From IMG/VR virus record IMGVR_UViG_3300017917_002795, positions 32,001-96,000 of that record: a stretch of DNA of 64,000 nucleotides. The stretch is one strand, 5' to 3'. Source of the stretch: a virus. A model generated the notes under the pieces. The model had not been told where the DNA came from and made no database searches. It saw nothing but the letters and a program-made list of their open reading frames with translations. Below are positions 1 to 53,201 of the stretch, piece by piece; positions within the stretch are counted from its first letter, which is position 1; the number at the start of each line of letters is the position of its first letter. A program made the position numbers and the translations under genes.

Positions 1-17
1 TTTAAAAAATTAAAGTT

Positions 18-251
18 ATGAAAAAGTTGTTGTTTATTACAAATGTAGTTGTTATTAATACATTATTGTTGTCGGTATGTTTATGTACTATTAATCCATT
101 TAATTTATCAGTTACTGAAATTATTAATAATGGTATTGAATGGCTGTTTTCGCCTAATCCGATTTATAATATTATTATGATTCTAAGTTTTATTAGTTTG
201 ATCATTTTTAATATTAATCTAATTGTAGATAAAGTAAAATTTAATAAATAA
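18..251 (+). CDS. Small hypothetical membrane protein
   Basis: 77 aa ORF with two hydrophobic segments; A-rich leader; followed by a terminator hairpin. Confidence 0.6.
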   Translation: MKKLLFITNVVVINTLLLSVCLCTINPFNLSVTEIINNGIEWLFSPNPIYNIIMILSFISLIIFNINLIVDKVKFNK

Positions 252-252
252 G

Positions 253-288
253 ATGGAAAATGGGGGTACATAACCCCCCATTTTCATT
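253..288. terminator. Probable bidirectional intrinsic terminator between convergent genes
   Basis: Inverted repeat aaaatggggg..cccccatttt between the + ORF ending at 251 and the - ORF ending at 305. Confidence 0.7.
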
Positions 289-304
289 AATTTATTTTAG
301 TATT

Positions 305-781
305 TTAAATTCCACCAGCACCTAGAATACCAGAGTCCGACCATTCTTCGTTTGAGTTAAATTGCTTTAAATGCCTTTCGATACCACCGGTGATTTTTTC
401 ATTTTTTGGATCAAATAATGATCGGAATGAATTTGGTTTCGTTTCTTCCATATCAGTACTTAACCACGCGAGTATAGTTTTATATTTCATTTTATTAACT
501 AATGCTAATACTTGATCGTATATTTGTTTATTTTTAATACCTCGTACGACTGCGTTATAAACTGACATATTATCGGTACCTAAACCAGCCATGGCAGTTT
601 TTATTTGCTGAATAATTGCATTAGGATTTAATTGTTCCAATAATGCTTTACGTACTTCTAAATACAAACCATGTTGTTCAATAGTTTCCATAATTGAGTT
701 AACAACTAATTCTTTCTGTGCAGCTTCTGACAAATTTTTAGTTCCAAAACGCATCATGTTTTCTGCTAATGTGTTTTTCAT
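305..781 (-). CDS. MKNTLAEN-leader protein with one annexin-like repeat; putative internal head protein
   Basis: Leader shared with 1541..2383; AMAGLGTD motif resembles the annexin GxGTD loop; ATATTTATA motif and AAGGA upstream. Confidence 0.6.
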   Translation of the reverse strand: MKNTLAENMMRFGTKNLSEAAQKELVVNSIMETIEQHGLYLEVRKALLEQLNPNAIIQQIKTAMAGLGTDNMSVYNAVVRGIKNKQIYDQVLALVNKMKYKTILAWLSTDMEETKPNSFRSLFDPKNEKITGGIERHLKQFNSNEEWSDSGILGAGGI

Positions 782-806
782 ATTTTTTTCCTTTGTGGTT
801 ACTTTC
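759..806. repeat. 48-bp exact repeat, copy 1 (leader, RBS and first codons of the MKNTLAEN gene)
   Basis: Identical to 2361..2408. Confidence 0.9.
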
Positions 807-810
807 TTTG

Positions 811-820
811 ATATAAATAT
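811..820 (-). promoter_or_regulatory. Putative late promoter ATATTTATA (minus strand)
   Basis: atataaatat on the + strand, upstream of a minus-strand gene; the same motif precedes about 20 genes in sense orientation. Confidence 0.65.
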
Positions 821-844
821 AGTAATAATGAAAAAACATTTTAT

Positions 845-873
845 TTGGATATATGAAAATATTTTCTTATATT
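845..873 (+). promoter_or_regulatory. Putative early/middle promoter TTGGAT-N17-TATATT
   Basis: Exact 17-nt spacer; the same architecture occurs at 3890, 22287 and 40234. Confidence 0.6.
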
Positions 874-915
874 TATAGTATAATTAATTAGTTAACCATT
901 TAAAAATAAGAGATC

Positions 916-1536
916 ATGAAAAAGTTAGCATTTATTTTTGTTTTATATACAAATACATTATTTTCACAAAATATAGTAACTGATTATTATAAAGAAATTG
1001 CAGCCCACTCTGAGTATGCAAGTGATGGTATTACTTCATTTACTCCACGTACATGGAAAACAGATATAAAAATATTTGTTAAAGGTAATAAAGATTCTGT
1101 AGCCTATTCAGAATTGATTAAAGTTATCAATGAATTAAATGAATTAATTAATACCATTGAAATTAAAATTGTAGATACAGAACCAGAAGCTAACTTAATT
1201 GTTTTCTTCGGTTGGTTTATAGATTATGAAAAAATTGATCCAAATGTTGCACCGTATACAGCAGAAAATTATGGTTTAGCTGCTATATATCACGGTGAAA
1301 ATAATAATTGGATCCGCGGGTCATTTTATGTTGATGTTGTAAGGTGTGAATGGTTACCAAAAGATCGAGCTGAATTATTAAAACGTCATGCTGTACGTGA
1401 AGAACTTACGCAATCATTAGGTTTAATGAATGATTCAATGAAGTATCCTGATAGTATTTTTTATCAAGAATGGTCATTAGTAACTGAATATTCAGATTTG
1501 GATAAACAAATTATAAAAATGCATTACGCATATTAA
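916..1536 (+). CDS. Secreted DUF2927-like (metallopeptidase-like fold) protein
   Basis: N-terminal signal peptide (..TLFS|Q); motif EELTQSLGLMNDS..YPDSIFYQ. Confidence 0.65.
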   Translation: MKKLAFIFVLYTNTLFSQNIVTDYYKEIAAHSEYASDGITSFTPRTWKTDIKIFVKGNKDSVAYSELIKVINELNELINTIEIKIVDTEPEANLIVFFGWFIDYEKIDPNVAPYTAENYGLAAIYHGENNNWIRGSFYVDVVRCEWLPKDRAELLKRHAVREELTQSLGLMNDSMKYPDSIFYQEWSLVTEYSDLDKQIIKMHYAY

Positions 1537-1540
1537 TAAT

Positions 1541-2383
1541 TTATTTTATTTTATTAACATTAACCATCTCACCATAATGCCATGTTAGAACTTCGATATA
1601 ATCTGCATATCCCTTATATTCTGGACAATATCCATCCCCTAATCTTATTCGAATATAATCAACTCCAGCTTTTAATTTTGAACCATTTATATGAAGACTT
1701 TTTGGAATAACCGTTGGATCATCAAATGCTGCTAAAGCTTGATCTGCCCCAGCCCCAGCACCTCTTGCAACAAACAAATCTGATTGCTGTTCTATAGTAC
1801 GATCAGCTGATTCAGATGCTGTACCGTCACTTTGTATAAATGGTTTATTTGGATCTCCAGAATAGTTTGTGGTAACTGGCCGGTTAAATAAATATAAGTA
1901 TGTTGTACCAGATTTTAAATCTGCGTTGTTAGTTACACTACCATAATGTCCAACATAACAAGCTCTTGTCATAAATGAACCTACAATAATCTTATCTGTA
2001 TTATTATTTTCTAACTCTAGAAATCCGTAACCACCAGCACCAGCAACAGCTCCAGATTTAGGATCCCATAATACAAGTTTTTTTGCAAAAACTAAAATAG
2101 TTTTTCCAATTATTTTATTAAGATTGCCCTGATAACCTCCTATATATTCGATCATTGTTTTCCATAATCCATCAGACTTTAAAAACGATCGATTTGGATC
2201 AGATTTCGAAGGAGTAATTGAGATTCCAGGAACGGTCATTAATGATTTTGCATGAGTTCCGGTAATATTAGACTTACCAGAATCAGTTGGTTCTGTTGCC
2301 TGTTCTGCTAATTTAGATCGATCAGTTTCAGAAAGATTTTTTACGCCAAATCTAAGTAAATTTTCTGCTAATGTGTTTTTCAT
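1541..2383 (-). CDS. MKNTLAEN-leader hypothetical protein; putative internal head protein
   Basis: Start moved from 2410 to 2383 because the leader and RBS match 305..781; begins MKNTLAENLLRFGVKNLSE. Confidence 0.7.
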   Translation of the reverse strand: MKNTLAENLLRFGVKNLSETDRSKLAEQATEPTDSGKSNITGTHAKSLMTVPGISITPSKSDPNRSFLKSDGLWKTMIEYIGGYQGNLNKIIGKTILVFAKKLVLWDPKSGAVAGAGGYGFLELENNNTDKIIVGSFMTRACYVGHYGSVTNNADLKSGTTYLYLFNRPVTTNYSGDPNKPFIQSDGTASESADRTIEQQSDLFVARGAGAGADQALAAFDDPTVIPKSLHINGSKLKAGVDYIRIRLGDGYCPEYKGYADYIEVLTWHYGEMVNVNKIK

Positions 2384-2408
2384 ATTTTTTTCCTTTGTGG
2401 TTACTTTC
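2361..2408. repeat. 48-bp exact repeat, copy 2
   Basis: Identical to 759..806. Confidence 0.9.
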
Positions 2409-2498
2409 ATATAAATATACGAATAAAAAAAAATACCAGTTATTTGGATTTGTGAAAATGTTTATATAATATATAGTATAATCCATTAAATTTATTAT

Positions 2499-3530
2499 AT
2501 GATTCGTCTAGGTTACTGCTGCATTAATATGCAACTTTCATCTCAAGGCATCCGCACCGGTCGCACAATGATTGATCGCAAGTTCCGTCTTGGCGGTTTA
2601 CAATTAGCTTCTGACATTGCACTTGCCAATGCTAAAGATTTATTGACTATTCTGCAATGGAATGAATCGCAAGGTATTCGTCTATTTCGTATTGGTTCAG
2701 AATTATTTCCTCGTTGGAATCATTATGAGTTAGCAGATTTGCCAGGTATCGCGGAGATCACACATCATCTTCGCATAGCAGGTGATTATGCTCGTGCTCA
2801 TAATCATCGTCTTACGACACACCCTGGTCCGTTTCATATCTTAGGTAGTCCTGATGATGTGGTTGTTGACAATAGCATCATTGGCCTCGAGCGTCATAGC
2901 GAAATGTTTGACCTTATGGGTTATGCTCCTAGCTTTGACAATCTTATCAATATTCATATTGGTGCTACTTACGGCGATAAGCCTGGTACGGTTGCTCGTT
3001 GGTTGTTTAACTACGCACGTTTATCAGCGTCCTGCCGTGCACGGTTAGTTGTTGAGAATGATGATAAGGCTTCCATGTATTCCGTGCGTGAATTATATGA
3101 GATGGTGCATTCTGTTACGCGTATTCCTATTACATTTGACTATTGGCATCATACATTCAATACAGGTGACATCAGCGAGCAAGAAGCTTTCTTCATGGCA
3201 CGTGACACGTGGGCTATTCATGGTGCTACGCAATGCACTCATTACTCCGAGTCGCGACGTCGTGAGCAGCAACTTCTCATTGAGCGTATGTTTGCACATC
3301 ATGGCATTTCTTTAGAAACTATTGCACAATGGCCAACATTTCACAAACAATACAAAGAATTTACTAAGATCAAGGAGCAAGCTCATGCTGATTTTATCAC
3401 ACAGCTTCCGAATACATATGGTGTTGATGCATTAGATGTTGAGGTTGAGGCTAAGGCTAAAGAGCAATCATTGTTACAACTAAATGTAACATGTTGCCAA
3501 GAACAAAAAACTGCATTGATTTTAGATTAA
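2499..3530 (+). CDS. uvsE: UV DNA damage endonuclease (UvsE/UVDE family)
   Basis: Motifs RLGYCCIN, FRIGSELFP, HPGPF, INIHIG, RLVVENDD, FDYWHH, HAD, VEAKAKE. Confidence 0.92.
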   Translation: MIRLGYCCINMQLSSQGIRTGRTMIDRKFRLGGLQLASDIALANAKDLLTILQWNESQGIRLFRIGSELFPRWNHYELADLPGIAEITHHLRIAGDYARAHNHRLTTHPGPFHILGSPDDVVVDNSIIGLERHSEMFDLMGYAPSFDNLINIHIGATYGDKPGTVARWLFNYARLSASCRARLVVENDDKASMYSVRELYEMVHSVTRIPITFDYWHHTFNTGDISEQEAFFMARDTWAIHGATQCTHYSESRRREQQLLIERMFAHHGISLETIAQWPTFHKQYKEFTKIKEQAHADFITQLPNTYGVDALDVEVEAKAKEQSLLQLNVTCCQEQKTALILD

Positions 3531-19465: not shown

Positions 19466-21097
19466 ATGGCAGAATCTAAATTAAAACAACAAGATACGTA
19501 TCAAGGAATATATCCTACAGTTTTTAAAAAGATTGATGCTACAGATATTAACGTTAGTCCGTTTCAATCATATAAAACATGGACATTTACAAACAGTAGT
19601 CCTACTAGTAGTATACAAATATTAAAAGGTATATATTCAGATCCAAATTTTTTACCAGCATTAGGTACTAACTTAACGTATAATGATGCTGTGAATAATG
19701 ATGGATCATTGCAAACGCTTACATATTTTTCTATAAATCATTTTTATTATAAATACAAAACAGAACCTACTAAAACTTTTGGTCCTACAGATCTATCTCG
19801 AACTAAAAAAGTTTTATATGAATCTGCTTCTGTTTTTTCTTTTCCACAACGACAAATTGGCGATGGTATTAAACCAGGATCTTTTAAAATAAACGGAAAT
19901 TTCCAAGCTTCGGGTATTTACGGGGTTGGGATTTATGGAAATAGTATATATGGTAATGCTATAAATTCAAATGTTACTATTGTTTCTGATAGATATGGTA
20001 ATTTAATACATTCAGAATATCCAACAGCATCGATTATATCTAATGTAATGTGGTATGAAGGATTTAATGAATATTTTGATACAACACGAGTTGCATATTC
20101 ATCAGCTAATGTTTCATATATTCCAGGAATTTCATATAATTCAGGATCTGGATCATATGGTTATCAAGCTAATTTTGCTGGTGATGGATATATTAAAACA
20201 TCAATCGATGGTTTATATGATCGCAATCATAATTATGCAATTTCATTTTTTATTAAAGCAGAAAATAATACTGCAAATTCTAACATCATTTTAACCAAAT
20301 CTACCAGTTCATTAACACCTCAGTTTCCATTTAAAATTGAATTAACACCAAATAATTACATTGATTTTACGATTGCTGGAAGTACATCAGTTAAAAATAA
20401 TATCACATCTTCTATTGCAATGAATTCAGTTGAACGGCATATATTGTGTCAGAAATCTGGAAGTGTTATGCAGTTATGGATTGATGGTATATTGCATGCT
20501 TCAGCTAGTAGTACGTTTTTAACAGATACCAATTCACCATTAGTAGAATCTGCGCGCATTGATAACGCAGATCCGGTGTTTATTGGTGGATATGAGACTT
20601 CTGGTAGTGGATTAGTTGGTAATATAGATGAAATTCGAATTTATAATAAAGCATTAACATCCACAGAAATTGGTTATTTATGTGATATTAATTCCAATTT
20701 GACATTCATGCAAACTAATCATGTGGGTAACGTATTTTCTAAACAAGGAATAGCCGTAATTTCATCCCCGGATTATCGTTTTGATTACATCGTTAATAAC
20801 AATTTTGAAATTTCATACCGAAGCACCAAAACAATTCATGAATTATCGGTGATTGCTAATGTTAATTCAGGTGATTTTAATATGTCAACCAATTTAACAT
20901 TAACTAAAGATGATGATCAAACATATAAATCATTTGTTAGTAGTAGTAGTTTTTCACCATACATAACTACAATTGGATTATATGATGGCAATGGCCAATT
21001 ATTGGCAGTCGGAAAATTAGCTCAGCCAATACGTAAGCTTACTGATGTTGATATGAATTTATTGGTTCGTATTGATTTAGATAGGAATATATCATGA
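19466..21097 (+). CDS. Structural protein with LamG-like lectin domain
   Basis: YAISFFIK..HI..LWIDG..IGG..GNIDEIRIYNKALT; C-terminal YITTIGLYD..LLAVGKLAQP. Confidence 0.7.
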   Translation: MAESKLKQQDTYQGIYPTVFKKIDATDINVSPFQSYKTWTFTNSSPTSSIQILKGIYSDPNFLPALGTNLTYNDAVNNDGSLQTLTYFSINHFYYKYKTEPTKTFGPTDLSRTKKVLYESASVFSFPQRQIGDGIKPGSFKINGNFQASGIYGVGIYGNSIYGNAINSNVTIVSDRYGNLIHSEYPTASIISNVMWYEGFNEYFDTTRVAYSSANVSYIPGISYNSGSGSYGYQANFAGDGYIKTSIDGLYDRNHNYAISFFIKAENNTANSNIILTKSTSSLTPQFPFKIELTPNNYIDFTIAGSTSVKNNITSSIAMNSVERHILCQKSGSVMQLWIDGILHASASSTFLTDTNSPLVESARIDNADPVFIGGYETSGSGLVGNIDEIRIYNKALTSTEIGYLCDINSNLTFMQTNHVGNVFSKQGIAVISSPDYRFDYIVNNNFEISYRSTKTIHELSVIANVNSGDFNMSTNLTLTKDDDQTYKSFVSSSSFSPYITTIGLYDGNGQLLAVGKLAQPIRKLTDVDMNLLVRIDLDRNIS

Positions 21098-21639
21098 TAC
21101 GTTTAAAACATTTATTAAATGAAATTTCACAACCAGAAATTCAGCGTTTATTAGAAAAAATCAAACAAAAACAATTTCGTTTATTAGCAACCGGTGATAA
21201 TGGTCGTGTTTATGAAATTGATGGGGAAGATAAAGTTTTTAAAATCACACAAGAACGAGATGAATTAGATGTTGCTTCGGTTATTGTAGGTCGTTGGACT
21301 GAGTTTACTACTTTTATTCCAGTATATTACATTAATAACCGGGAATCAATGTATATCATGGCTAATGCTAATCAATTAACTAGTTCTGATAAAATGTATA
21401 TCGATGAATTTATGTCTAGATATAAAGATTTTGCACGTGCAGAAGGAGGCGAAGTTTCAATTTTTGATTTTTTAGATGCAGATGGTGCTCGTAATACTGA
21501 TGTTAAATTAGTGAATTTTTTACGGTCATTACAAACAGATGTTAGCAAAATAGGTATTGATGAATTAGATTTAGATCTTGATTTTAGTTCTAATAATGTT
21601 ATGATTTGGAATGGTAAAATGGTATTAGTTGATTGGTAA
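21094..21639 (+). CDS. Minimal protein-kinase-like fold protein
   Basis: Gly loop ATGDNGRVY, VFK, helix-C Glu, catalytic DFSSNN (DxxxxN), terminal LVDW (DFG-like); leader MIRLKHLLNE. Confidence 0.65.
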   Translation: MIRLKHLLNEISQPEIQRLLEKIKQKQFRLLATGDNGRVYEIDGEDKVFKITQERDELDVASVIVGRWTEFTTFIPVYYINNRESMYIMANANQLTSSDKMYIDEFMSRYKDFARAEGGEVSIFDFLDADGARNTDVKLVNFLRSLQTDVSKIGIDELDLDLDFSSNNVMIWNGKMVLVDW

Positions 21640-29807: not shown

Positions 29808-31868
29808 ATGAACAAAATAACAGTGTTATTTCCTGGAGGATTCAAGCCTTTAACTGGAGCTCATCTTGCATTAGCCCAACGTTATGCTGCGTTACCCAAT
29901 GTAGACCGTGTAATACTGCTAATAGGTCCAAAAGATCGAGACGGCATTACACGTGAAAAAACCATTGAAATTTTCAACACATTGAATTCAAATCCACAAA
30001 TTGAAATTCAACCTACTCAATTCAACTCTCCTATTATGGCCGCATATGAATACTTATTTGCATTGCCTGAAGATGCCGTTGGTAATTATGCAATGGCCGC
30101 TTCAACCAAAGGAGATGATTATGTTCGAGCAAAAGCTTTTGTTCCAAACGTAGATAAATACCGAACCGTCGGAGACAAATCCGGACGTAAAATACCACAA
30201 GGTGTTAATGCAACGGAATTGAATTTAGATGTAGATCCATTACTATATAATTCAGGACAACCTATTTCAGCTACCATAGTTCGTCAAGCCATACAAAACA
30301 ATGATTATGACGAATTCCGTGCAGCATATCCAAATAATTCTGATGCTGAAGTACGTAATGCATGGCAAATACTAACCGAAGTACGAGAATCTAACACATG
30401 GCTAGATGAAATTTCTGAAGATGTTATCAAGTTTTTAGAAGGTTATATGGATACTAAAACTGCGGAAAAACACAAATCTAAAATTTCAAAACTAAAACGC
30501 TTTTTGGATTCTAATTTTGGAAAACCATTTACGTATGATTTTGATGAATTTGAAAAAACAGTGGTGGGTGTTAAATTGAATGAAGCTATTCAACTGTTTA
30601 AAGAAGGAGGTGCCGCAGGTCATATGTCACATCCATATGATGATTATGCATTATCTTTTGGTGATATGAAAGAAATTGTTGCTCGAGCTCTTTCTGGACG
30701 ATTAGATATCGAAGAAGCCGTTACTGAAAAGACTGATGGACAAAACATTCAAGTAACATGGAAGAATGGCCAACCTGGTTTTGCTAGAAACAAAGGAACT
30801 GTGATCAATCCAATGACTCCTGATCAGCTGATTGCGGATTTTGAAAGAAAATATCAAGAATCAATACAAAAGAATGGAGCTGAAGCGGCTGAAGGATATA
30901 AACGCGTTGTAGAAGCATACCGAGCATGTGCAGAAGATTTAACAAGCGCATTAACTAAACTTCCGGATGAAACCTTAGCAAAAATATTCAAAAATGGTCG
31001 AGTATTTGCAAACATGGAAATCATTTTTCCAGCCACGCGCAATGTTATATCATATGACAAAGCACATCTTCAATTTCACAATCTAGTTGAATATGATGAA
31101 GCAGGAAATCAAGTTGAAACTGATTTAACTGGAGGAGGAATGCTACAACGTGTCATACAAGATGCAAACGCTCACCTACAAAAAACATTTTCATTTATAC
31201 CACCACAACAAATCAAGATAGGACGCATCACAGATTTTGAAGATCAACAAGCAGCATTTTTCAGTGAAATTGATCAATTACGAAACAAATACAATTTAAA
31301 AGATACGGACCTAGTTTCAGAATATCATAGAGCATGGTGGGCAGATGTAATTCGCTCAAAAGCTCAAGAGTTAGGATATGAAATTCCAGATGATATTTTA
31401 ACCACATTAACTAATCGTTGGGCATTCGCAGATAAAAGCACTAATATATCTATGCTTAAAAAACAAATTGAAAATGCAGACTTTGCCGGTTGGGTAACTG
31501 AATTTGATAAACGTGATTTCAAAACATATCAAAAACAAAACATGGAACCGTTTGAAACAATATTTTTACGGTTAGGTGCAGTAGCATTACGAAATGCAGA
31601 AAATTTCTTAGCTGCAAATCCATCTGCATCAGTTCAACAAATCAAACAAGAAATCGCAGAATTGATCAAAGATCTACAAACACGTGGCGATGAAGCAACT
31701 GTAAAAAAATTAGAACATGAACTTCGTCGCATACAACGCCTAGGAGGTTTTGATGCAATAGTACCATCTGAGGGTGTTGTATTTGTGTACGGAGGGCATA
31801 CATATAAGCTTACAGGATCATTTGCTCCTGTTAATCAAATTTTAGGAGTATTGAAATACGCGCGGTGA
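29808..31868 (+). CDS. Fusion of an HxGH-type (cytidylyltransferase-like) domain and a ligase-like adenylyltransferase domain
   Basis: N-terminal FPGGFKPLTGAH..ISATIVR; C-terminal EKTDGQN (KxDG), NMEII, EGVVF, YKLTG. Confidence 0.65.
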   Translation: MNKITVLFPGGFKPLTGAHLALAQRYAALPNVDRVILLIGPKDRDGITREKTIEIFNTLNSNPQIEIQPTQFNSPIMAAYEYLFALPEDAVGNYAMAASTKGDDYVRAKAFVPNVDKYRTVGDKSGRKIPQGVNATELNLDVDPLLYNSGQPISATIVRQAIQNNDYDEFRAAYPNNSDAEVRNAWQILTEVRESNTWLDEISEDVIKFLEGYMDTKTAEKHKSKISKLKRFLDSNFGKPFTYDFDEFEKTVVGVKLNEAIQLFKEGGAAGHMSHPYDDYALSFGDMKEIVARALSGRLDIEEAVTEKTDGQNIQVTWKNGQPGFARNKGTVINPMTPDQLIADFERKYQESIQKNGAEAAEGYKRVVEAYRACAEDLTSALTKLPDETLAKIFKNGRVFANMEIIFPATRNVISYDKAHLQFHNLVEYDEAGNQVETDLTGGGMLQRVIQDANAHLQKTFSFIPPQQIKIGRITDFEDQQAAFFSEIDQLRNKYNLKDTDLVSEYHRAWWADVIRSKAQELGYEIPDDILTTLTNRWAFADKSTNISMLKKQIENADFAGWVTEFDKRDFKTYQKQNMEPFETIFLRLGAVALRNAENFLAANPSASVQQIKQEIAELIKDLQTRGDEATVKKLEHELRRIQRLGGFDAIVPSEGVVFVYGGHTYKLTGSFAPVNQILGVLKYAR

Positions 31869-31907
31869 TATATTTATATTATATTTATATAGAAAATAGG
31901 ACGAGTA

Positions 31908-32786
31908 ATGGCTGAAAAACATAAAAGCAAATACAAGAAACCAGAAAATAAGAAACCAACATATCGTAAAGATTTAAAAGATTATACGATGGATGATAAA
32001 GAAGGTAAATTGAATCCACATTCTACCAAAGAAAAACAAAGCAATGTTTTGCGTAAAACTGATAAAGATGTTGTAGATGATGGAAAATTTGATGTTAAAT
32101 ACAATGCCGACGATCGTCTTTACAAAGATTTAGAAGATGCTGATTATGATCCAAAACATGCTGCTAAGGTCATGAAAAAGCGTCAAGAAAAAGATGAAAA
32201 AGATAATGCTAAAAACATCAAAGACCGCATAGAAAATTTAACGCGCGAACAAAAAGAACATTTAGTTCGAGAATATGTTAAAAGAAAATTCATCTCTGCA
32301 TTATTTGAACAAGCACCACCTGCACCAGAAGAAGAAGAAGCTCCGGCAGAAGAAACACCAGCAGAACCAACACCTCCTGCAGATGCCGCAGCTCCAACTG
32401 ACGCAGCCGCCCCGGCTCCCGATGCCGCAGCACCGCCTGCACCTGATATGGCAGCACCTCCAGTAGATGCTGCAGCAACTCCTCCTGCTACTCCAGATGC
32501 AACAGCAGCACCAGAAGCACCTGCACCAGAAGAAGAATCTCCAGAAGCAGCAGCTGAAGAAGATTTAGCAAAACAAAAAATTGCATTAAAATACTGGGAT
32601 GAAATACTAGCAAGTCAAAAAGGTCCTAATAGTTTAGTAGATGCTGGATTTGATCCATTAGCAAAAGCATTAGCAAATTTAGGTCCAAAAGATTTGCGAT
32701 TAGCTAAAATAATGATTCTTCGCAGATTAGGTAAAATTCATCCAGCCTCACTTGCAAAACAATCAACAAATAAAACGCCAGAATAA
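31908..32786 (+). CDS. Hypothetical protein with charged N-terminus and Pro/Ala/Glu-rich linker
   Basis: 292 aa; tandem ATATTTATA upstream; APPADAAAP low-complexity tract. Confidence 0.7.
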   Translation: MAEKHKSKYKKPENKKPTYRKDLKDYTMDDKEGKLNPHSTKEKQSNVLRKTDKDVVDDGKFDVKYNADDRLYKDLEDADYDPKHAAKVMKKRQEKDEKDNAKNIKDRIENLTREQKEHLVREYVKRKFISALFEQAPPAPEEEEAPAEETPAEPTPPADAAAPTDAAAPAPDAAAPPAPDMAAPPVDAAATPPATPDATAAPEAPAPEEESPEAAAEEDLAKQKIALKYWDEILASQKGPNSLVDAGFDPLAKALANLGPKDLRLAKIMILRRLGKIHPASLAKQSTNKTPE

Positions 32787-39195: not shown

Positions 39196-39825
39196 ATGTC
39201 AAAACAACTATTAGTAGAATTCATGCCATTTCATCCGATTAGTTCATTAAATGAAACTAGCGGTGCTGCATTTGGCATTCCAGGAGGTTTTGTCGTACAA
39301 GGAGTTTTACAAAGAGCAGGTGCTAAAAATCAAAACGGTCGTGTATATCCTAAACCAATATTACATAGAGAATGTGTTCGATATCAAAAAGAATATATCG
39401 ATCAGCACCGAGCATTAGGAGAATTAGATCACCCAGAATCATCAGTAGTCAACTTAAACAATGTGTCACACAATGTTTTGAAAATATGGTGGGATGGTGA
39501 TGATTTAAAAGGTGCAGTTCAAATTCTAGATACTCCATCTGGAAATATTTTGAAATCATTGTTTAAGGCTGGCATCACATTAGGTATTTCTAGTCGCGGT
39601 TTAGGCTCTGTTAAAGAATTGCGAAATGAGGGAGTAGTTGAAGTTCAAGAAGATTTTGAATTAATATGTTGGGACTTCGTGTCTAATCCTTCGACTCATG
39701 GTGCTTTTATGCGGCCTACAAGGATGAATGAATCAACTGATAATAATATAGAACAAAATAAATACGCACGTGTAAATCAAATCATTACGTCGATTTTGTG
39801 TGAAGATGGTAAATGTAGGATATAA
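39196..39825 (+). CDS. Prohead core protease (gp21-like)
   Basis: NQNGRVYP, GELDHPE, GISSRGLGS, DFVSNPST. Confidence 0.93.
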   Translation: MSKQLLVEFMPFHPISSLNETSGAAFGIPGGFVVQGVLQRAGAKNQNGRVYPKPILHRECVRYQKEYIDQHRALGELDHPESSVVNLNNVSHNVLKIWWDGDDLKGAVQILDTPSGNILKSLFKAGITLGISSRGLGSVKELRNEGVVEVQEDFELICWDFVSNPSTHGAFMRPTRMNESTDNNIEQNKYARVNQIITSILCEDGKCRI

Positions 39826-40274: not shown

Positions 40275-40784
40275 ATGATGAATACGCTTAAAAAATTATA
40301 TAGAGACTTTTTCGGTTTAACGGAACAAACAATTGTTAATAAAAAACATCCGGTAGTTCCTGGACTAGATCCTAAAGATACCGCTAATCTAGCAAACTAC
40401 AACAAAGAACTACAAAAAACGCAGGCTTTAATGAAAGGCATGACATCAGAAGGAGAAATTGAAGAAGCTAAACTAGATAACAGCATAACAGATTATCAAG
40501 GCGGCGTTGAATATGTATTACATGATCCAGCTGTCGCACAAGCAACGTCCGATTCAATTCGTCAATGGGCTGAGAAAAAAGGGTTTACTGTTGTTAAACA
40601 ACAAGTATCTAAATCAGGTCGTGTTGGATATTTTTATTTTAGATTGGGTCAAGATCCTGCTCGCGAATCACAAAAAATTCAAGGATATTTTGCACAACGT
40701 CCAGAATTAAAACATTTCCGATTCAATGTTAGATCTGCTAAGCCAAAAGCAAATTTACCAGCAAAAATAGTTAAGAAAATTTAA
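40275..40784 (+). CDS. Hypothetical protein
   Basis: 169 aa ORF; leader ending FFGLTEQ. Confidence 0.65.
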   Translation: MMNTLKKLYRDFFGLTEQTIVNKKHPVVPGLDPKDTANLANYNKELQKTQALMKGMTSEGEIEEAKLDNSITDYQGGVEYVLHDPAVAQATSDSIRQWAEKKGFTVVKQQVSKSGRVGYFYFRLGQDPARESQKIQGYFAQRPELKHFRFNVRSAKPKANLPAKIVKKI

Positions 40785-48832: not shown

Positions 48833-51364
48833 ATGTCTACAACTAAAATCGTCTTAAATAGACAATCTGATTTAATTTTAGATAACGCGCAAATCACTGC
48901 TCCGGTTGGTATCGTTGTTGCGGATATCGATGGTTTAGAATCAGCAATTGCTTCTATCGATTCTAACGTGTCAACTGAAGTTTCTCGCGAGATCTCTTCT
49001 AGAGTATCTGGTGATGCATCTGTTGCTGCAAATTTATCTACAGAAGTTGAAAACCGTGAAGCTGCAGTATCTGCTGAAGAATCTCGTGCAATGGTAGCTG
49101 AGCAATCATTACAAAACAATATCGATGCTGAAGCATCTGTACGTATTGTTGGTGATGAAAGTTTAGAAGCTGCAATGTCAACTGCTGATGCTTCATTGGA
49201 TGCTAAAGTATCTTCTGAAACTGCTCGTGCAGAATCAGCTGAATCTTCATTAGAAGGTAGAATTGATTACATCGTATCAAACGTTGATCCTGCTGCTTTA
49301 GATTCATTAACTGAAATCGTTGGTGCTTTCCAAAGTGCAGATGGTGACCTTAACGGTGCTATCACTTCATTGGCTACTGCTGCTGGTGCTTCTTTAAGCT
49401 CTGAAGTATCTCGTGCTACATCAGCTGAAGCTTCTTTGGCTTCTGATCTATCTGTTGAAATCGCTGATAGAGAAGCTGCTATCTCATTAGAAGAAGCTGC
49501 TCGTATCTCAGGCGATGCTTCTGTTGTTGCTGACTTGTCTGTTGAAACTGCAAACCGTGAGGCTGCTGTATCGGCTGAGGCTTCTGCACGAGTATCTGGT
49601 GATGCAAGTTTAGAGTCTAAAATTACTGCTGATTTATCTACTGCAAATGCTTCTATCGAAGGTGCATTGAGTACTGAAATTTCAGCTCGTATCTCTGATG
49701 TAGATGCTGAAGAATCTGCTCGTATTTCTGGTGATGCTTCTTTAAGTGCTGCACTTTCTGTTGAAGTATCGGCAAGAATCGCTGACGTTGATGCTGAAGA
49801 GTCTGCTCGTATCGCTGCTGTAAGTGTTGAAGAATCTGCTAGAGTATCTGGTGATGCTTCTTTGGCTGCTGGTTTGTCTTCTGAAGTATCTGCAAGAATC
49901 GCAGATGTAGACGCTGAAGAATCAAGAGCAATGAGTGTTGAAGGCGTATTGAGCGCTGATTTATCATCTGAAGTATCTGCAAGAATTGCTGATGTTGACG
50001 CTGAACAATCAAGAGCTGAATCTGCTGAAGCATCATTGGCTTCTGGACTTTCTGTTGAAGTATCTGCAAGAATTGCTGATGTTGATGCTGAACAATCAAG
50101 AGCTGAATCTGCTGAAGCTTCTTTAAACGTTGCTTTGTCTTCTGAAGTTTCTGCAAGAATCGCTGACGTTGACGCTGAAGAGTCTGCAAGAATATCTGCA
50201 ATTGACAACGAAGCTTCTATCCGTTTGGCTGCTGACCAATCATTGGCAACGGCTGTATCTGCTGAAGCATCACGTATCGATGTTATCCTTGATGGTTCAG
50301 ATGTTGATCTTGATCAATTTGCTGAAATCGTTGAGTTCGTTAACGGAATTGACCTTGAAAACGATAACGCATTGTTAAGTGCTGTAACTTCAATTGGTTT
50401 AGATATCGATGCTGAAGAATCTCGCGCGGTATCTGCTGAAGCTTCTTTGAACTCTGCATTATCTGTTGAAATCTCAGCTCGTATCTCTGATGTAGATGCT
50501 GAACAATCACGTGCAGAATCAGCTGAAGCATCTTTGGCTTCTGGTCTTTCTGTTGAAATCTCAGCTCGTATCTCTGACGTTGACGCTGAAGAATCTCGTG
50601 CAATGAGTGTTGAAGCTGTATTAAGTGGTGATTTATCTTCTGAAGTTTCAGCTCGTATTGCTGATGTTGACGCTGAAGAATCTCGTGCGGTATCTGCTGA
50701 AGCGTCTTTAAACGTTGCTTTATCTTCTGAAATTTCAAGAGCTGAATCTGCTGAAGCGTCTTTAGCTACTGAATTATCTTACGAAGTATCTTACTTAATT
50801 GCAAACACAGACTTAACTTCAATTGACTCATTTGCTGAAGTATCAACTGAATTGTCAAATGAAATCTCTACAAGAGAATCTGCTGACAACTCACTTGAAG
50901 CTTATGTTTCAACTGAAATCGATGGTTTGGCTGCAGCTGATGAAGCAACTATTGAACTTGATACTGTTGGAAACGTAATTCGTTTGAAAGAAACAATTGC
51001 AGCACCTGCAAGTGGTTTAAGAACATTCGAAGGTGATGTTGAAGTATCTGGTGACTTGACAGTTGGTGGTGTTAACGTAATTGCTGAAATTAGCTCAGAA
51101 GTTTCTCGTGCAGAATCTGCTGAATTGAGCTTGGCTGATGACTTTGCAAACATCTACTTCAAGAAAGTTGCTGTATCTGGAACAATTAATGGTTCAAACG
51201 ATGTATTTACTCTAGCAAGTGCTGTAAGAAATGGCTCAGAAGCTATTTACTTGAACGGTCTATTGTTGAGTGCATCTGATGACTATGCAGTTTCTGGTAC
51301 ATCGTTAACATTTGTTGCCGCTCCTGAAGCTGGTGATAAAGTTGTTGTTTACGGTATGTATTAA
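48833..51364 (+). CDS. Long repeat coiled-coil fibre protein
   Basis: Repeated 11- and 18-residue units (EVSARIADVDA / EESRAESAEASL..L); three LDSL.EI-type breaks; C-terminal beta domain. Confidence 0.75.
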   Translation: MSTTKIVLNRQSDLILDNAQITAPVGIVVADIDGLESAIASIDSNVSTEVSREISSRVSGDASVAANLSTEVENREAAVSAEESRAMVAEQSLQNNIDAEASVRIVGDESLEAAMSTADASLDAKVSSETARAESAESSLEGRIDYIVSNVDPAALDSLTEIVGAFQSADGDLNGAITSLATAAGASLSSEVSRATSAEASLASDLSVEIADREAAISLEEAARISGDASVVADLSVETANREAAVSAEASARVSGDASLESKITADLSTANASIEGALSTEISARISDVDAEESARISGDASLSAALSVEVSARIADVDAEESARIAAVSVEESARVSGDASLAAGLSSEVSARIADVDAEESRAMSVEGVLSADLSSEVSARIADVDAEQSRAESAEASLASGLSVEVSARIADVDAEQSRAESAEASLNVALSSEVSARIADVDAEESARISAIDNEASIRLAADQSLATAVSAEASRIDVILDGSDVDLDQFAEIVEFVNGIDLENDNALLSAVTSIGLDIDAEESRAVSAEASLNSALSVEISARISDVDAEQSRAESAEASLASGLSVEISARISDVDAEESRAMSVEAVLSGDLSSEVSARIADVDAEESRAVSAEASLNVALSSEISRAESAEASLATELSYEVSYLIANTDLTSIDSFAEVSTELSNEISTRESADNSLEAYVSTEIDGLAAADEATIELDTVGNVIRLKETIAAPASGLRTFEGDVEVSGDLTVGGVNVIAEISSEVSRAESAELSLADDFANIYFKKVAVSGTINGSNDVFTLASAVRNGSEAIYLNGLLLSASDDYAVSGTSLTFVAAPEAGDKVVVYGMY
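49660..50780 (+). repeat. Coding tandem repeats, mostly 87-bp (29-aa) period
   Basis: For example, gaagtatctgcaagaattgctgatgttga(c/t)gctgaacaatcaagagctgaatctgctgaagc recurs 87 bp apart near 49970 and 50057. Confidence 0.8.
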
Positions 51365-51378
51365 TAGTTTAAATTTAT

Positions 51379-51402
51379 GGGGAGGATGAAATACTCCTCC
51401 CT
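51379..51402 (+). terminator. Hairpin (terminator-like) abutting ATATTTATA at 51403
   Basis: gggagga..tcctccc. Confidence 0.6.
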
Positions 51403-51452
51403 ATATTTATACAAAACAAAATAAATAAACTAAAAAAAAATAAAAAAAAACT

Positions 51453-53201
51453 ATGGCAACTTTTATAACATCCAAAGGGGTTGGGGAAACAATATCAATC
51501 ACTGTTGTAACCTCTACCGGATATTGGAAATATAACCATAACGGGACAGATTCAAGTGCTTTCGTAAATGGTGAAGACGGAGTGATAACTATATCAAACG
51601 CAAATGGTGAATTTACACTTATTTCATGTGATAGTGAAGGTAATGTAAGTGGGGATATTATTTATTTGGAATCACAAAATAACCAAATAACTTCATTTAA
51701 TGGAACAGGTTTAACATCATTAACTGAGTTGTATTTAGGTGGTAACCAATTAACATCATTTGATGGTACTGGTTTATCAGATTTAAACGTTTTGTATTTA
51801 ACCAATAACCAATTAACTGGATTTACGGGAACAGGTTTATCTTCTTTAACTCAGTTGTATTTATACAATAACCAATTAACCGGATTTACGGGAACAGGTT
51901 TAACATCATTAACTGAGTTGTATTTAGAAAATAACCAATTAACATCATTTGATGGAACAGGTTTATCTTCTTTAACTACATTGGGTTTATATAATAACCA
52001 ATTAACTTCATTTGACGGAACGGGTTTATCTTCTTTAACTACATTGGGTTTATATAATAACCAATTAACTTCATTTGACGGAACGGGTTTATCTGGATTA
52101 ATTAATTTAAATATAGAAAATAACCAATTAACTGGATTTACAGGAACTGGTTTATCTTCTTTAACTGAGTTGTATTTAGGTAATAACCCACTCACATCAT
52201 TCAATGGTGGAGATATGGGTCAAATCACAAGTTTAAATTTTCAAGGTAACTTGGGTATTTCAACACTAGAATCATTTGATGGTGGTAATATGACTGGTTT
52301 AACTGAATTGTATTTACACAATAACCAATTAACTTCATTTGATGGAACTGGTTTATCTTCTTTAACTCAGTTGGATTTAAACACCAACCAATTAACTTCA
52401 TTTGACGGAACAGGTTTATCTGGTTTAACTTCATTGGCTTTATATGGCAACCCACTCACATCATTCAATGGTGGTGACATGGGTCAAATCACCGAGTTAA
52501 ATTTTCCTGATAGTTGGAATATTACAACGCTACAATCATTTGATGGTGGTAATATGACTGGGTTAACTTCGTTATATTTATATAACAACCAATTAACTTC
52601 ATTTGATGGAACTGGTTTATCTGGATTAACTTCGTTATCTTTATATAACAACCAATTAACTTCATTTGATGGATTTATTTTTCCTGAAAGTTTAACTTAT
52701 TTAGAATTAAACAACAACCAATTAACTTCATTTGACGGAACTGGTTTATCTGGATTAACTTCGTTATCTTTAAACAGTAACCAATTAACTTCATTAGATG
52801 GATTTATTTTTCCTGAAAGTTTAACTTATTTAGAATTAAACAACAACCAATTAACTTCATTTGACGGAACTGGTTTATCTTCGTTAAATGGATTGTATTT
52901 AGCTAACAACCAATTAACATCAATTAATATTGCTGGTTGTGATATTCTTCGATATCTATACGTTAATGATAATCCATTAACACCCGTTATCAACAATTCA
53001 CTTCTAGCAAAACTTGCAGCAAATGAATTAGTAAATGATTGGAATTCTGGTGAATTCATCACAACAGGAGGAAGAACATCTGCTGGTACAACTGATTATG
53101 ATTATTTGATCGCAAATGGTTGGTCAATTGGAGGTGCTGATTTAGTTCCCGTTGTAACAGGTAAACTACGTGTTAAAGGTGTTGGACAGATTAATCCATA
53201 A
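51453..53201 (+). CDS. Leucine-rich repeat protein (about 21 LRRs, mostly 21 aa)
   Basis: LxxLxLxxNQLTSFDGTGLSS repeats; no signal peptide. Confidence 0.92.
   Translation: MATFITSKGVGETISITVVTSTGYWKYNHNGTDSSAFVNGEDGVITISNANGEFTLISCDSEGNVSGDIIYLESQNNQITSFNGTGLTSLTELYLGGNQLTSFDGTGLSDLNVLYLTNNQLTGFTGTGLSSLTQLYLYNNQLTGFTGTGLTSLTELYLENNQLTSFDGTGLSSLTTLGLYNNQLTSFDGTGLSSLTTLGLYNNQLTSFDGTGLSGLINLNIENNQLTGFTGTGLSSLTELYLGNNPLTSFNGGDMGQITSLNFQGNLGISTLESFDGGNMTGLTELYLHNNQLTSFDGTGLSSLTQLDLNTNQLTSFDGTGLSGLTSLALYGNPLTSFNGGDMGQITELNFPDSWNITTLQSFDGGNMTGLTSLYLYNNQLTSFDGTGLSGLTSLSLYNNQLTSFDGFIFPESLTYLELNNNQLTSFDGTGLSGLTSLSLNSNQLTSLDGFIFPESLTYLELNNNQLTSFDGTGLSSLNGLYLANNQLTSINIAGCDILRYLYVNDNPLTPVINNSLLAKLAANELVNDWNSGEFITTGGRTSAGTTDYDYLIANGWSIGGADLVPVVTGKLRVKGVGQINP
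51660..52985 (+). repeat. 63-bp coding tandem repeats (LRR array)
   Basis: Conserved aaccaattaac(t/a)tcatttga(t/c)ggaac.ggtttatc alternating with variable segments. Confidence 0.9.

What the first reader, a model, noticed from the sequence alone, without database searches (positions are those of the whole stretch)
18..2498. Repeating cassette: a fixed promoter and leader module driving unrelated cargo genes
Seen: two minus-strand genes share an exact 48-bp stretch (759-806 = 2361-2408) covering the RBS and first codons, and a ~19-aa leader (MKNTLAEN.. RFG.KNLSE). After the leader the proteins are unrelated. Both upstream gaps have the same layout, with ATATTTATA facing left and ttatttggat..TA facing right. 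The unit [+ MKKL.. exported gene][- MKNTLAEN gene][divergent promoters] occurs twice. Inference: a late promoter plus packaging leader acts as a reusable address label, and recombination at the repeat swaps the cargo domain, giving a shufflable library of injected proteins.
Basis: partly seen in the sequence, partly recalled or inferred. Interest (0 to 1): 0.8.

Follow-up and report, generated by a model that had tools for sequence, protein, structure and literature searches.

The report
Portable head-loading leader on phage cargo genes
Two late genes of an uncultured T4-like phage start with the same promoter, ribosome site and about 27-residue peptide, a tag found on over a thousand otherwise unrelated phage proteins. 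It most likely works like phage T4's "load into the head, then cut off" signal, though no protein data exist.

Summary
An exact 48-bp repeat (759-806 = 2361-2408) joins two minus-strand genes that share residues 1-26 and nothing else. Only these two copies exist in the 140.6-kb genome.

The module is not a local duplication. A 32-position leader profile finds 1,115 proteins (50%-identity representatives), almost always at residue 1. Sampled cargos fall into more than 50 BLAST-unlinked groups.

In related phage contigs the leader genes sit in one hypervariable island beside uvdE. DNA homology from the uvdE side ends inside or at the end of the leader in 41 of 60 contigs.

The leader carries three [LI]xE motifs (E7, E19, about E27), and conservation stops after the third. 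The phage has a T4 gp21-type (S77) prohead protease, and its head-core proteins are enriched in [LI]xE.

The ATATTTATA motif upstream is the one found before the phage's structural genes.

Best reading (0.6): a T4-style capsid-targeting propeptide on swappable cargo. Packaging, cleavage and injection are inferred, not shown.

New here: the islands alternate leader genes with signal-peptide genes on the other strand.

The scan noted similar CTS-like leaders on other DNA (94 findings in at least 89 genomes). This leader family was seen only in this genome.

The parts
18..251 (+). Partner gene of unit 1: a 77-aa small membrane protein (MKKL..., two hydrophobic segments), convergent with leader gene A.
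   Evidence: ORF. Homologous small MKK... proteins pair with the same cargo class in L014, L027, L065 and L070.
256..285 (.). Bidirectional terminator-like hairpin between the convergent genes.
   Evidence: 11-pair stem, 6 GC pairs, T runs on both strands.
305..781 (-). Leader gene A, 158 aa. It has the long pro-region form (codons 1-49, window 781-635, with [LI]xE at E7, E19, E32, E49) followed by a helical cargo with a GLGTD annexin-like motif.
   Evidence: (L47 and E49 invariant in 21 homologues).
759..806 (-). Copy A of the exact 48-bp repeat: ribosome site plus codons 1-8.
812..820 (-). ATATTTATA late-type promoter motif, 39 nt before ATG 781.
   Evidence: The motif occurs 35 times on the + strand and 4 on the - strand, following gene direction. 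It precedes the portal, a tail-sheath-like gene and several large ORFs next to the baseplate-wedge gene.
842..906 (+). Rightward promoter module (TTTGGAT ... TATAGTATAAT plus 5' leader). Positions 863-906 are an exact 44-nt copy of genome 31965-32008.
916..1536 (+). Partner gene of unit 2: 206 aa with a signal peptide, DUF2927 family.
   Evidence: PF11150, E 3e-22.
1541..2383 (-). Leader gene B, 280 aa. It has the short pro-region form (codons 1-27, window 2383-2303, with [LI]xE at E7, E19, E27) followed by a mixed alpha/beta cargo with no known relatives.
2361..2408 (-). Copy B of the exact 48-bp repeat.
2410..2418 (-). ATATTTATA late-type promoter motif, 35 nt before ATG 2383.
2441..2482 (+). 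Rightward promoter module before uvdE (TTTGGAT ... TATAGTATAAT).
2499..3530 (+). UV-damage endonuclease UvdE gene, the conserved right-hand anchor of the hypervariable island.
   Evidence: PF03851, E 2e-52.
39196..39825 (+). Prohead protease (Peptidase_S77, T4 gp21 type), the presumed enzyme that removes the leader.
   Evidence: E 2e-31; aligns to T4 gp21 5JBL at E 3e-20; GELDHP and GISSRG present.

Best explanation
The two genes belong to a large, phage-only family of late proteins. Their first ~27 residues (49 in one subclass) form a portable pro-peptide: MKNxLAE-N[LM]xRFGxKNL[ST]E-x7-LxE.

Inferred mechanism. The genes are transcribed from the phage's structural-gene promoter motif. The leader docks the protein onto the scaffolding core of the assembling prohead. 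The T4 gp21-type protease then cuts after the Glu of the [LI]xE sites, the last of which marks the leader/cargo junction. The mature cargo stays in the head and leaves with the DNA, as T4's internal proteins and Alt do.

Promoter, ribosome site and leader are conserved as DNA while the cargo is not. The module therefore also acts as a recombination handle. Related phages carry different cargos at the same island beside uvdE, and copies within one genome are homogenised.

Shown here: the repeat, the family and its size, the promoter motif distribution, the island and its breakpoints, the [LI]xE pattern, and the protease gene. Inferred: docking, cleavage, packaging, ejection and any anti-host role of the cargo.
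For: 1. Family size. The leader sits on about 125 proteins among the hits of two word-index searches. It is in 76 IMG/VR loci, with up to 5 copies per locus. A leader profile finds 1,115 representatives at E<=0.001, and the leader begins at residue 1 (RFG motif start at residue 9) in 121 of the 136 newly fetched proteins among the 150 listed.
2. Cargo diversity. 196 unique proteins give at least 55 BLAST-unlinked cargo groups, and a further 51 groups among 123 new representatives. The identical leader variant sits on 19 groups.
3. Selection on the peptide. Arg11 uses all six codons and Gly13 uses four.
4. A third [LI]xE with its Glu at residues 22-40 is present in 58 of 63 cargo-group representatives, against 0.08 expected. 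Conservation ends there.
5. The same cargo occurs behind a different leader, with the junction again at LxEQ.
6. The S77 protease is present here and in all 5 large leader-bearing contigs tested.
7. [LI]xE is enriched in this phage's head-core proteins (12 vs 5.2, 8 vs 2.8, 7 vs 2.2, 15 vs 9.3) but not in the portal.
8. ATATTTAT lies within 80 nt upstream of 71 of 84 leader genes, most often 33-35 nt before the ATG. The same motif precedes structural genes.
9. Hybrid leaders such as MKLEKLLAENMLRFG and MIKLKNILQENMRSFG join this leader to the 10-residue MIxLKxLLxE tag, which resembles the T4 CTS.
10. Homology from uvdE ends in leader codons 12-27 in 41 of 60 contigs.
11. Leader DNA identity is 0.91 within genomes and 0.77 between genomes for genes with unrelated cargo.
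12. T4 precedent. Propeptides of 10-19 residues target internal proteins to the core and are removed by gp21. The IPs share only this leader (PMC9026906, PMC3012670, PMC12373910). Multiple cleavage sites in propeptides are known from phiKZ and SPN3US (PMC9026906, PMC5694885).
Against: No virion proteome, N-terminal sequence or expression data exist for this phage or any relative with this leader, and no cultured phage carries it. The leader has no significant sequence similarity to the T4 CTS (MKTYQEFIAE). It is longer, with a strongly conserved RFGxKN block that T4 lacks and whose role is unexplained. The specificity of this phage's protease is assumed from T4 (L/I-x-E, from my own knowledge) and supported only by motif enrichment. 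Many cargos are larger than the T4 IPs, and they are not notably basic (median net charge +3, range -10 to +13). The breakpoint clustering is partly the same fact as 'leader conserved, cargo not'.
Confidence: 0.6

Rival explanations
1. The leader is an assembly or attachment tag for another virion site (neck, tail, baseplate, fibres or head surface), or a binding tag for a common chaperone. On this reading it is not a signal for the inside of the head, and the proteins are virion-associated or assembly-associated but not internal cargo.
For: The genes have the late-type promoter. The conserved RFGxKN block has no counterpart in the T4 CTS and could bind some other partner. No data place the proteins in the head.
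Against: There are three regularly placed [LI]xE motifs, and conservation ends at the last. Hybrids exist with the CTS-like MIxLKxLLxE tag. Attachment domains of fibres are normally longer folded domains, whereas the leader is modelled with low confidence as short helices.
Confidence: 0.13
2. The leader serves a non-virion purpose inside the infected cell. It could be a membrane or pole localisation helix, a degron or timing tag, or a signal for non-classical export. The LxE motifs would then be incidental features of an amphipathic helix.
For: Nothing excludes it directly. The genes are always interleaved with exported-protein genes, which might hint at an envelope-related role.
Against: The leader is not hydrophobic: only 1 of 65 opposite-strand island ORFs is signal-like. 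The third LxE lies exactly at the conservation boundary in 58 of 63 groups. The pattern is essentially phage-only: 76 viral loci against 1 hit, on a 3.7-kb MAG contig, in 596 Gb of prokaryote genomes.
Confidence: 0.12
3. The conserved stretch matters mainly as nucleic acid, for example as a translation-initiation or mRNA-stability element, or as a target of a phage small RNA. The shared peptide would be a by-product.
For: In this genome the identical part (48 bp) is the ribosome site plus the first eight codons, and identity drops right after. Another note of this scan reports a small RNA antisense to a shared early-gene leader in the same genome.
Against: Across phages the amino acids are kept through synonymous changes: six Arg codons, four Gly codons, five Leu codons. 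The ribosome-site region varies between phages. The profile search works at the protein level.
Confidence: 0.05
4. This is a simple local duplication: two paralogues whose bodies have diverged beyond recognition.
For: The two units lie next to each other and have the same layout.
Against: Each cargo has its own homologues elsewhere, with the same or with another leader. The folds differ. Profile comparison finds only the leader. The same leader is on more than 50 unlinked cargo groups.
Confidence: 0.03

Closest known systems
Phage T4 internal proteins IPI, IPII, IPIII (and Alt), with the capsid targeting sequence (CTS) and gp21 processing; the polymorphic ip loci of T-even phages (Repoila et al. 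1994, as cited in PMC3012670 and PMC12373910; PMC9026906)
   Same: A short N-terminal propeptide is the only thing shared by otherwise unrelated late proteins. It ends in a Glu preceded by L/I-x. The phage has a gp21-type protease, a gp22-like scaffold, and gp20 and gp23 homologues. The genes cluster in a non-conserved hotspot between conserved genes. The first seven residues (MKNxLAE) and their 10-residue hybrids (MKLEKLLAE) look like a CTS.
   Different: There is no significant sequence similarity to MKTYQEFIAE. The leader is 27-49 residues long with three or more [LI]xE sites and an invariant RFGxKN block. The host range is different (probably Bacteroidota; nearest isolates are Flavobacterium phage immuto, Microcystis phage Mel-JY01 and Rhodothermus RM378). 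The scale is far larger (1,115 representatives). The promoter motif reads ATATTTATA in gene direction, not TATAAATA. The genes alternate with exported-protein genes. Nothing has been shown biochemically.
Ejection and inner-body proteins of giant phages phiKZ, 201phi2-1 and SPN3US, processed by gp21-related proteases (PMC9026906, PMC5694885)
   Same: The propeptides carry several cleavage motifs, each cut after Glu. The redundancy is thought to ensure removal of the propeptide. Paralogues share identical N-termini.
   Different: Those motifs are S/A/G-x-E and the propeptides are often more than 100 residues. They do not form a single portable leader on dozens of unrelated cargos.
PeSL mobile regulatory cassettes of T4-type phages (Arbiol et al. 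2010, PMC2839356; PMC4122927)
   Same: Short conserved regulatory modules are repeated in hyperplastic regions. They flank variable non-essential genes and are proposed to drive modular shuffling by recombination.
   Different: PeSLs are early sigma-70-like promoters joined to a terminator stem-loop, and they are non-coding. Here the repeated module is a late-type promoter, ribosome site and coding leader, arranged back-to-back with a second rightward promoter module.
Polymorphic toxin and effector systems with a conserved N-terminal trafficking part and swappable C-terminal cargo (CDI, Rhs, and MIX/FIX-marked T6SS effectors; from my own knowledge, not checked here)
   Same: The logic is the same: one address label on many cargos, with recombination at the conserved part.
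   Different: The machinery and organisms are different. There are no immunity genes of that kind here, although the constant pairing with an exported-protein gene is unexplained.

Membership tests
T4-type capsid-targeting (CTS) internal/ejected proteins | A short N-terminal propeptide shared by proteins that are otherwise unrelated | tested here: met
   only residues 1-26 match; more than 50 unlinked cargo groups; the same leader on 19 groups.
T4-type capsid-targeting (CTS) internal/ejected proteins | The propeptide ends at a prohead-protease motif (L/I-x-E, cut after Glu) | tested here: inconclusive
   The motif is present at E7, E19 and about E27, and conservation ends after the last (58 of 63 groups against 0.08 expected). 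Actual cleavage is not testable here.
T4-type capsid-targeting (CTS) internal/ejected proteins | The phage encodes a gp21-family (S77) prohead protease and a T4-type head module | tested here: met
   (Peptidase_S77, Portal_T4, Gp23; alignment to 5JBL). All 5 large leader-bearing contigs also have S77.
T4-type capsid-targeting (CTS) internal/ejected proteins | Late expression together with the head genes | tested here: inconclusive
   The genes share the ATATTTATA motif with structural genes, and the motif follows gene direction. No transcript data.
T4-type capsid-targeting (CTS) internal/ejected proteins | Sequence similarity of the leader to the T4 CTS MKTYQEFIAE | tested here: not met
   No match to any record of the phage collection, which holds many T4-type coliphage genomes. 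By eye the two share only M-K at the start, a hydrophobic core and a terminal x-E.
T4-type capsid-targeting (CTS) internal/ejected proteins | Physical presence in proheads and virions, and ejection into the host | not testable with these tools
   No isolate carries the leader, and no proteome is available.
T-even polymorphic ip locus (hypervariable hotspot between conserved genes) | A conserved position with different leader-bearing genes in related phages | tested here: met
   28 distinct islands of 0.3-8.6 kb lie between the homologue of genome ORF 31352-31918 and uvdE; breakpoints fall at the leader.
PeSL regulatory cassettes | An early sigma-70-like promoter fused to a terminator stem-loop, non-coding | tested here: not met
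   The module here is a late-type motif, ribosome site and coding leader. The only hairpin (256-285) lies between the convergent genes, not in the module.

The most novel reading that the evidence does not exclude
The island may be a two-strand cassette array in which each unit couples a head-packaged, injected protein with an exported envelope protein, both driven from back-to-back conserved promoter modules. The pairs would be functional partners. For example, an injected effector could be matched with a periplasmic or membrane protein that shields the already infected cell from the same effector of superinfecting phages, as T4 Spackle blocks the gp5 lysozyme. In addition, the RFGxKN extension may be a second address that sorts this cargo class apart from proteins bearing the plain 10-residue tag.
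Probability: 0.15. Interest if true: 0.8.

Novelty: new variant of a known kind. Interest (0 to 1): 0.55.

Why it matters
If the leader is a head-loading signal, this clade of freshwater Bacteroidota-type T4-like phages carries a very large exchangeable repertoire of proteins delivered with the DNA. That is more than a thousand distinct proteins, nearly all of unknown fold or function. In T4 the three such proteins with known targets are all inhibitors of host restriction enzymes (PMC12373910). The cargo list would therefore be a ready-made catalogue of candidate anti-defence or host-takeover proteins, recognisable from sequence by a 27-residue tag.

The tripartite leader also offers a second, independent capsid-targeting sequence for protein packaging in phage engineering. 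The strict alternation with exported-protein genes is a new regularity that needs explaining.

Tried and rejected
- Pfam and PHROGs gave nothing for either leader protein.
- tblastn of the 158-aa protein against 50,697 phage records gave no match. The nearest isolate by capsid protein, Flavobacterium phage immuto, has no RFGxKN leader and no uvdE homologue, so there is no cultured model.
- The 280-aa cargo model (pLDDT 77) has no match by Foldseek or VIA-align against the PDB, and the protein atlas gave only unnamed viral clusters.
- For the 158-aa cargo, only weak annexin rows appeared (E about 1-3). This is a lead, not a finding.
- A generic sigma-70 promoter scan was no better than shuffles.
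- Repoila et al. 1994 could not be read, so it is cited only through reviews.
- I tested whether partner gene and cargo are fixed pairs. They are partly linked and partly reassorted, which does not decide between functional coupling and mere linkage.
- I rejected the upstream ATG 2410 as the start of gene B, because it lies within the promoter motif and homologues start at the MKN Met.
- RNA-seq look-ups were not run. Old runs are held as contigs only and could not show packaging.
Full report
**Observation**

The window starts inside a small island of four genes that ends at a uvdE gene.
- Two minus-strand genes, 305-781 (158 aa) and 1541-2383 (280 aa), begin with the same 48 bp: 759-806 = 2361-2408, exact, none expected by chance.
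- The repeat holds the ribosome site and the first eight codons (two bases of codon 8).
- Similarity continues at 80% over 95 nt, and both divergent intergenic regions align along their whole length.
- The proteins share MKNTLAEN..RFG.KNLSE. BLASTP and profile-profile comparison link residues 1-26 only.
- The models differ: one is all-helical, the other mixed alpha/beta.
- The whole genome is one 140,594-bp contig, and the window is bases 32001-96000 of it. It has just these two copies at DNA and peptide level.

**What the genome is**

The window encodes a T4-type head module:
- large terminase and Portal_T4;
- a Peptidase_S77 prohead protease;
- an acidic scaffold-like protein;
- a Gp23-family capsid protein.

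The protease aligns to T4 gp21 (PDB 5JBL, E 3e-20) and has GELDHP and GISSRG where the T4 chain has the corresponding segments. The nearest isolates by capsid protein are Flavobacterium phage immuto (56%), Microcystis phage Mel-JY01 and Rhodothermus phage RM378. This is therefore a distant T4-like phage, probably of Bacteroidota. The exported proteins have MKKL...SQ/AQ type signal peptides.

**The promoter**

- ATATTTATA occurs 35 times on the plus strand and 4 times on the minus strand, following gene direction.
- It lies 20-35 nt before the starts of the portal gene, a tail-sheath-like gene and several large ORFs next to the baseplate-wedge gene. It lies 39 and 35 nt before the two leader genes.
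- In 84 distinct leader genes from other phages, 71 have ATATTTAT within 80 nt, most often 33-35 nt before the ATG.
- It is thus the structural-gene (late-type) motif of this lineage. In gene direction it is not T4's TATAAATA.

**The leader is a widespread, portable peptide**

- Two word-index searches returned about 125 metagenomic proteins with the leader at 80-100% identity and unrelated bodies.
- A degenerate DNA pattern found 76 IMG/VR loci with 104 leader genes, up to five per locus. It found one hit in 596 Gb of prokaryote genomes, on a 3.7-kb MAG contig.
- A 32-position profile found 1,115 representatives (clusters at 50% identity) at E<=0.001. The leader begins at residue 1 (RFG motif start at residue 9) in 121 of the 136 newly fetched proteins among the 150 listed.
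- 196 unique leader proteins fall into at least 55 BLAST-unlinked cargo groups. 123 new representatives fall into 51 groups. One identical leader variant sits on 19 groups.
- Selection acts on the peptide: Arg11 uses all six codons, Gly13 four, Leu17 five.

**Anatomy of the leader**

- [LI]xE occurs with its Glu at residue 7 (in all proteins) and at residue 19 (169 of 196).
- A third [LI]xE has its Glu at 22-40 in 184 of 196 proteins and in 58 of 63 cargo-group representatives. The mode is E27, then E30 and E32. The expectation from the protein bodies is 0.08.
- Conservation stops right after this third site, typically at LxE followed by Q or A.
- The 158-aa class has a longer conserved pro-region that ends at an invariant L47-x-E49.
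- Four homologues of the 280-aa cargo carry a quite different leader (KFIITEEE.SRILG...YLMEQ), and the junction again falls at LxEQ.
- Hybrid N-termini such as MKLEKLLAENMLRFGVKN, MIKLKNILQENMRSFGTKN and MIRLKNLLKENMRRFGTKN suggest that MKNxLAE is a short form of the 10-residue MIxLKxLLxE tag.
- The N..RFGxKNLxE block is an added module of unknown role.

**Is [LI]xE the protease's motif here?**

Only indirect evidence is available. Against 1,000 composition-preserving shuffles, [LI]xE is enriched in the head-module proteins expected to be degraded:

| Protein | Observed | Shuffle mean |
|---|---|---|
| 289 aa | 12 | 5.2 |
| 236 aa | 8 | 2.8 |
| 134 aa | 7 | 2.2 |
| scaffold-like | 15 | 9.3 |
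| portal | 4 | 7.4 |

The capsid protein has two sites (E32, E48) before its Gp23 domain starts at residue 68.

**The locus**

- In related contigs most leader genes lie in one island, between the homologue of genome ORF 31352-31918 and uvdE, and are divergent from uvdE.
- Twenty-eight distinct islands measure 0.3 to 8.6 kb.
- Of 60 contigs whose DNA aligns across the start of uvdE, the alignment ends as follows:

| Where the alignment ends | Contigs |
|---|---|
| Leader codons 12-27 | 41 |
| First codons, ribosome site or promoter | 10 |
| Before the module | 8 |
| 2 nt past codon 27 | 1 |

- On the other side, homology often ends at window 28, just after the MKK start of the plus-strand gene.
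- Leader DNA (57 nt) of genes with unrelated cargo is 0.91 identical within a genome and 0.77 between genomes. Only 2% of between-genome pairs reach 0.91 (L062 and L072 are near-duplicates).
- In this window the 158-aa gene carries MKNTLAEN, whereas most homologues of that cargo carry MKNLLSEN. This fits local conversion by its neighbour.

**An added regularity**

Within the 28 islands, ORFs of at least 120 aa divide by strand.
- On the uvdE strand, 38 of 40 are signal-peptide-like. The other two are start miscalls.
- On the opposite strand, 41 of 65 have the RFGxKN leader and 10 have an MIxLKxLLxE-like tag. Most of the rest have other LxE-ending N-termini or miscalled starts. Only one is signal-like.

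Among 82 distinct convergent pairs, 47 cargo groups meet 35 partner groups. Some pairs recur and many are reassorted. I cannot tell functional coupling from linkage between two recombination-prone promoter modules.

The rightward module ends in TATAGTATAAT. It occurs five times in the genome, always on the plus strand. Two copies share an exact 44 nt.

**Mechanism and comparison**

In T4, 10-19-residue propeptides target IPI-III to the scaffolding core and are removed by gp21. The first ten residues of IPIII suffice to load foreign proteins. The IPs share only this leader and sit in variable hotspots (PMC9026906, PMC3012670, PMC12373910, the last two citing Repoila et al. 1994). Propeptides with several cleavage sites are known from phiKZ and SPN3US (PMC9026906, PMC5694885).

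The present system fits this scheme in every feature that sequence can test. It fails only on sequence similarity to the T4 CTS. I therefore say it works like a CTS system (confidence 0.6), not that it is the same family. Packaging, cutting and ejection are untested.

The rival explanations are another virion site or a chaperone tag (0.13), an intracellular tag (0.12), an RNA-level element (0.05) and a plain duplication (0.03).

**Cargo function**

Cargo function is unknown. The 280-aa body has no sequence, fold or atlas relatives of known function. The 158-aa body is a helical domain with a GLGTD motif and only weak annexin rows.

**Relation to the rest of the scan**

Notes on CTS-like leaders exist for at least 89 other genomes. 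A look-up by sequence found this leader only in this genome's own windows. My scores rest on the tests above.

Noticed in passing
genome 31965-32008 (window -35..8) and window 863-906: A second exact repeat of 44 nt. It is the rightward promoter and 5' leader (…TATAGTATAAT…) of the two plus-strand MKKL genes. TATAGTATAAT occurs five times in the genome, all on the plus strand (16877, 19581, 31976, 32874, 34472), which suggests a distinct promoter class.
   Followed up: partly
28 islands in loci L002-L075; window 18-251 and 916-1536: Every island alternates signal-peptide genes on the uvdE strand (38 of 40) with LxE-leader genes on the other strand. Why exported proteins and presumed head cargo are interleaved is unexplained.
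   Followed up: partly
window 305-781, residues about 53-139: The cargo of the 158-aa protein is a helical domain with a GLGTD motif. Foldseek lists annexins A2 and A5 among weak rows (E 1-3, about 82 columns). The annexin-like reading remains a lead only.
   Followed up: partly
P0079-P0082: Homologues of the 280-aa cargo carry a different conserved leader, M.KFIITEEE(K/R)SRILG...YLMEQ. This is a further leader family ending in LxE.
   Followed up: no
genome 21296, 22021, 22637, 23140, 24507, 25718, 113551; window 21094-21639: Eight genes start with MI[RKQ]L[KR].LL.E-type decapeptides (the subject of another note). At the place orthologous to genome 113551, contig L019 has an RFGxKN-leader gene instead, so the two leaders may be interchangeable.
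   Followed up: partly
window 40275-40784: A 169-aa protein inside the head module, between the protease and the scaffold, starts MMNTLKKLYRDFFGLTEQ. This loosely resembles the leader (MxNTL, an F-G pair, LTE).
   Followed up: no
islands of L013, L032, L051, L054, L063, L075: Large opposite-strand proteins (291-645 aa) start with yet another N-terminus, such as ..LVLEEVIRIKLFED..TIILEEAIRAKLAEQ or ..LLETIIREELSLLQE. This resembles the 'IIREE' leader noted elsewhere in the scan.
   Followed up: no
window 48833-53201: Long arrays of 63-, 87- and 129-nt coding repeats (Ser/Ala/Glu-rich) lie in two large plus-strand genes, probably fibre proteins.
   Followed up: no
L078 (MAG contig CAZKLA010000117.1, labelled Aquiluna sp.): This is the only hit of the leader pattern in the prokaryote genome collection. 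It is a 3.7-kb contig, probably phage DNA binned into an actinobacterial MAG.
   Followed up: no
window 1536-1541: The DUF2927 gene and leader gene B converge with only four bases between their stop codons and no terminator hairpin. This is unlike unit 1, which has the 256-285 hairpin.
   Followed up: no
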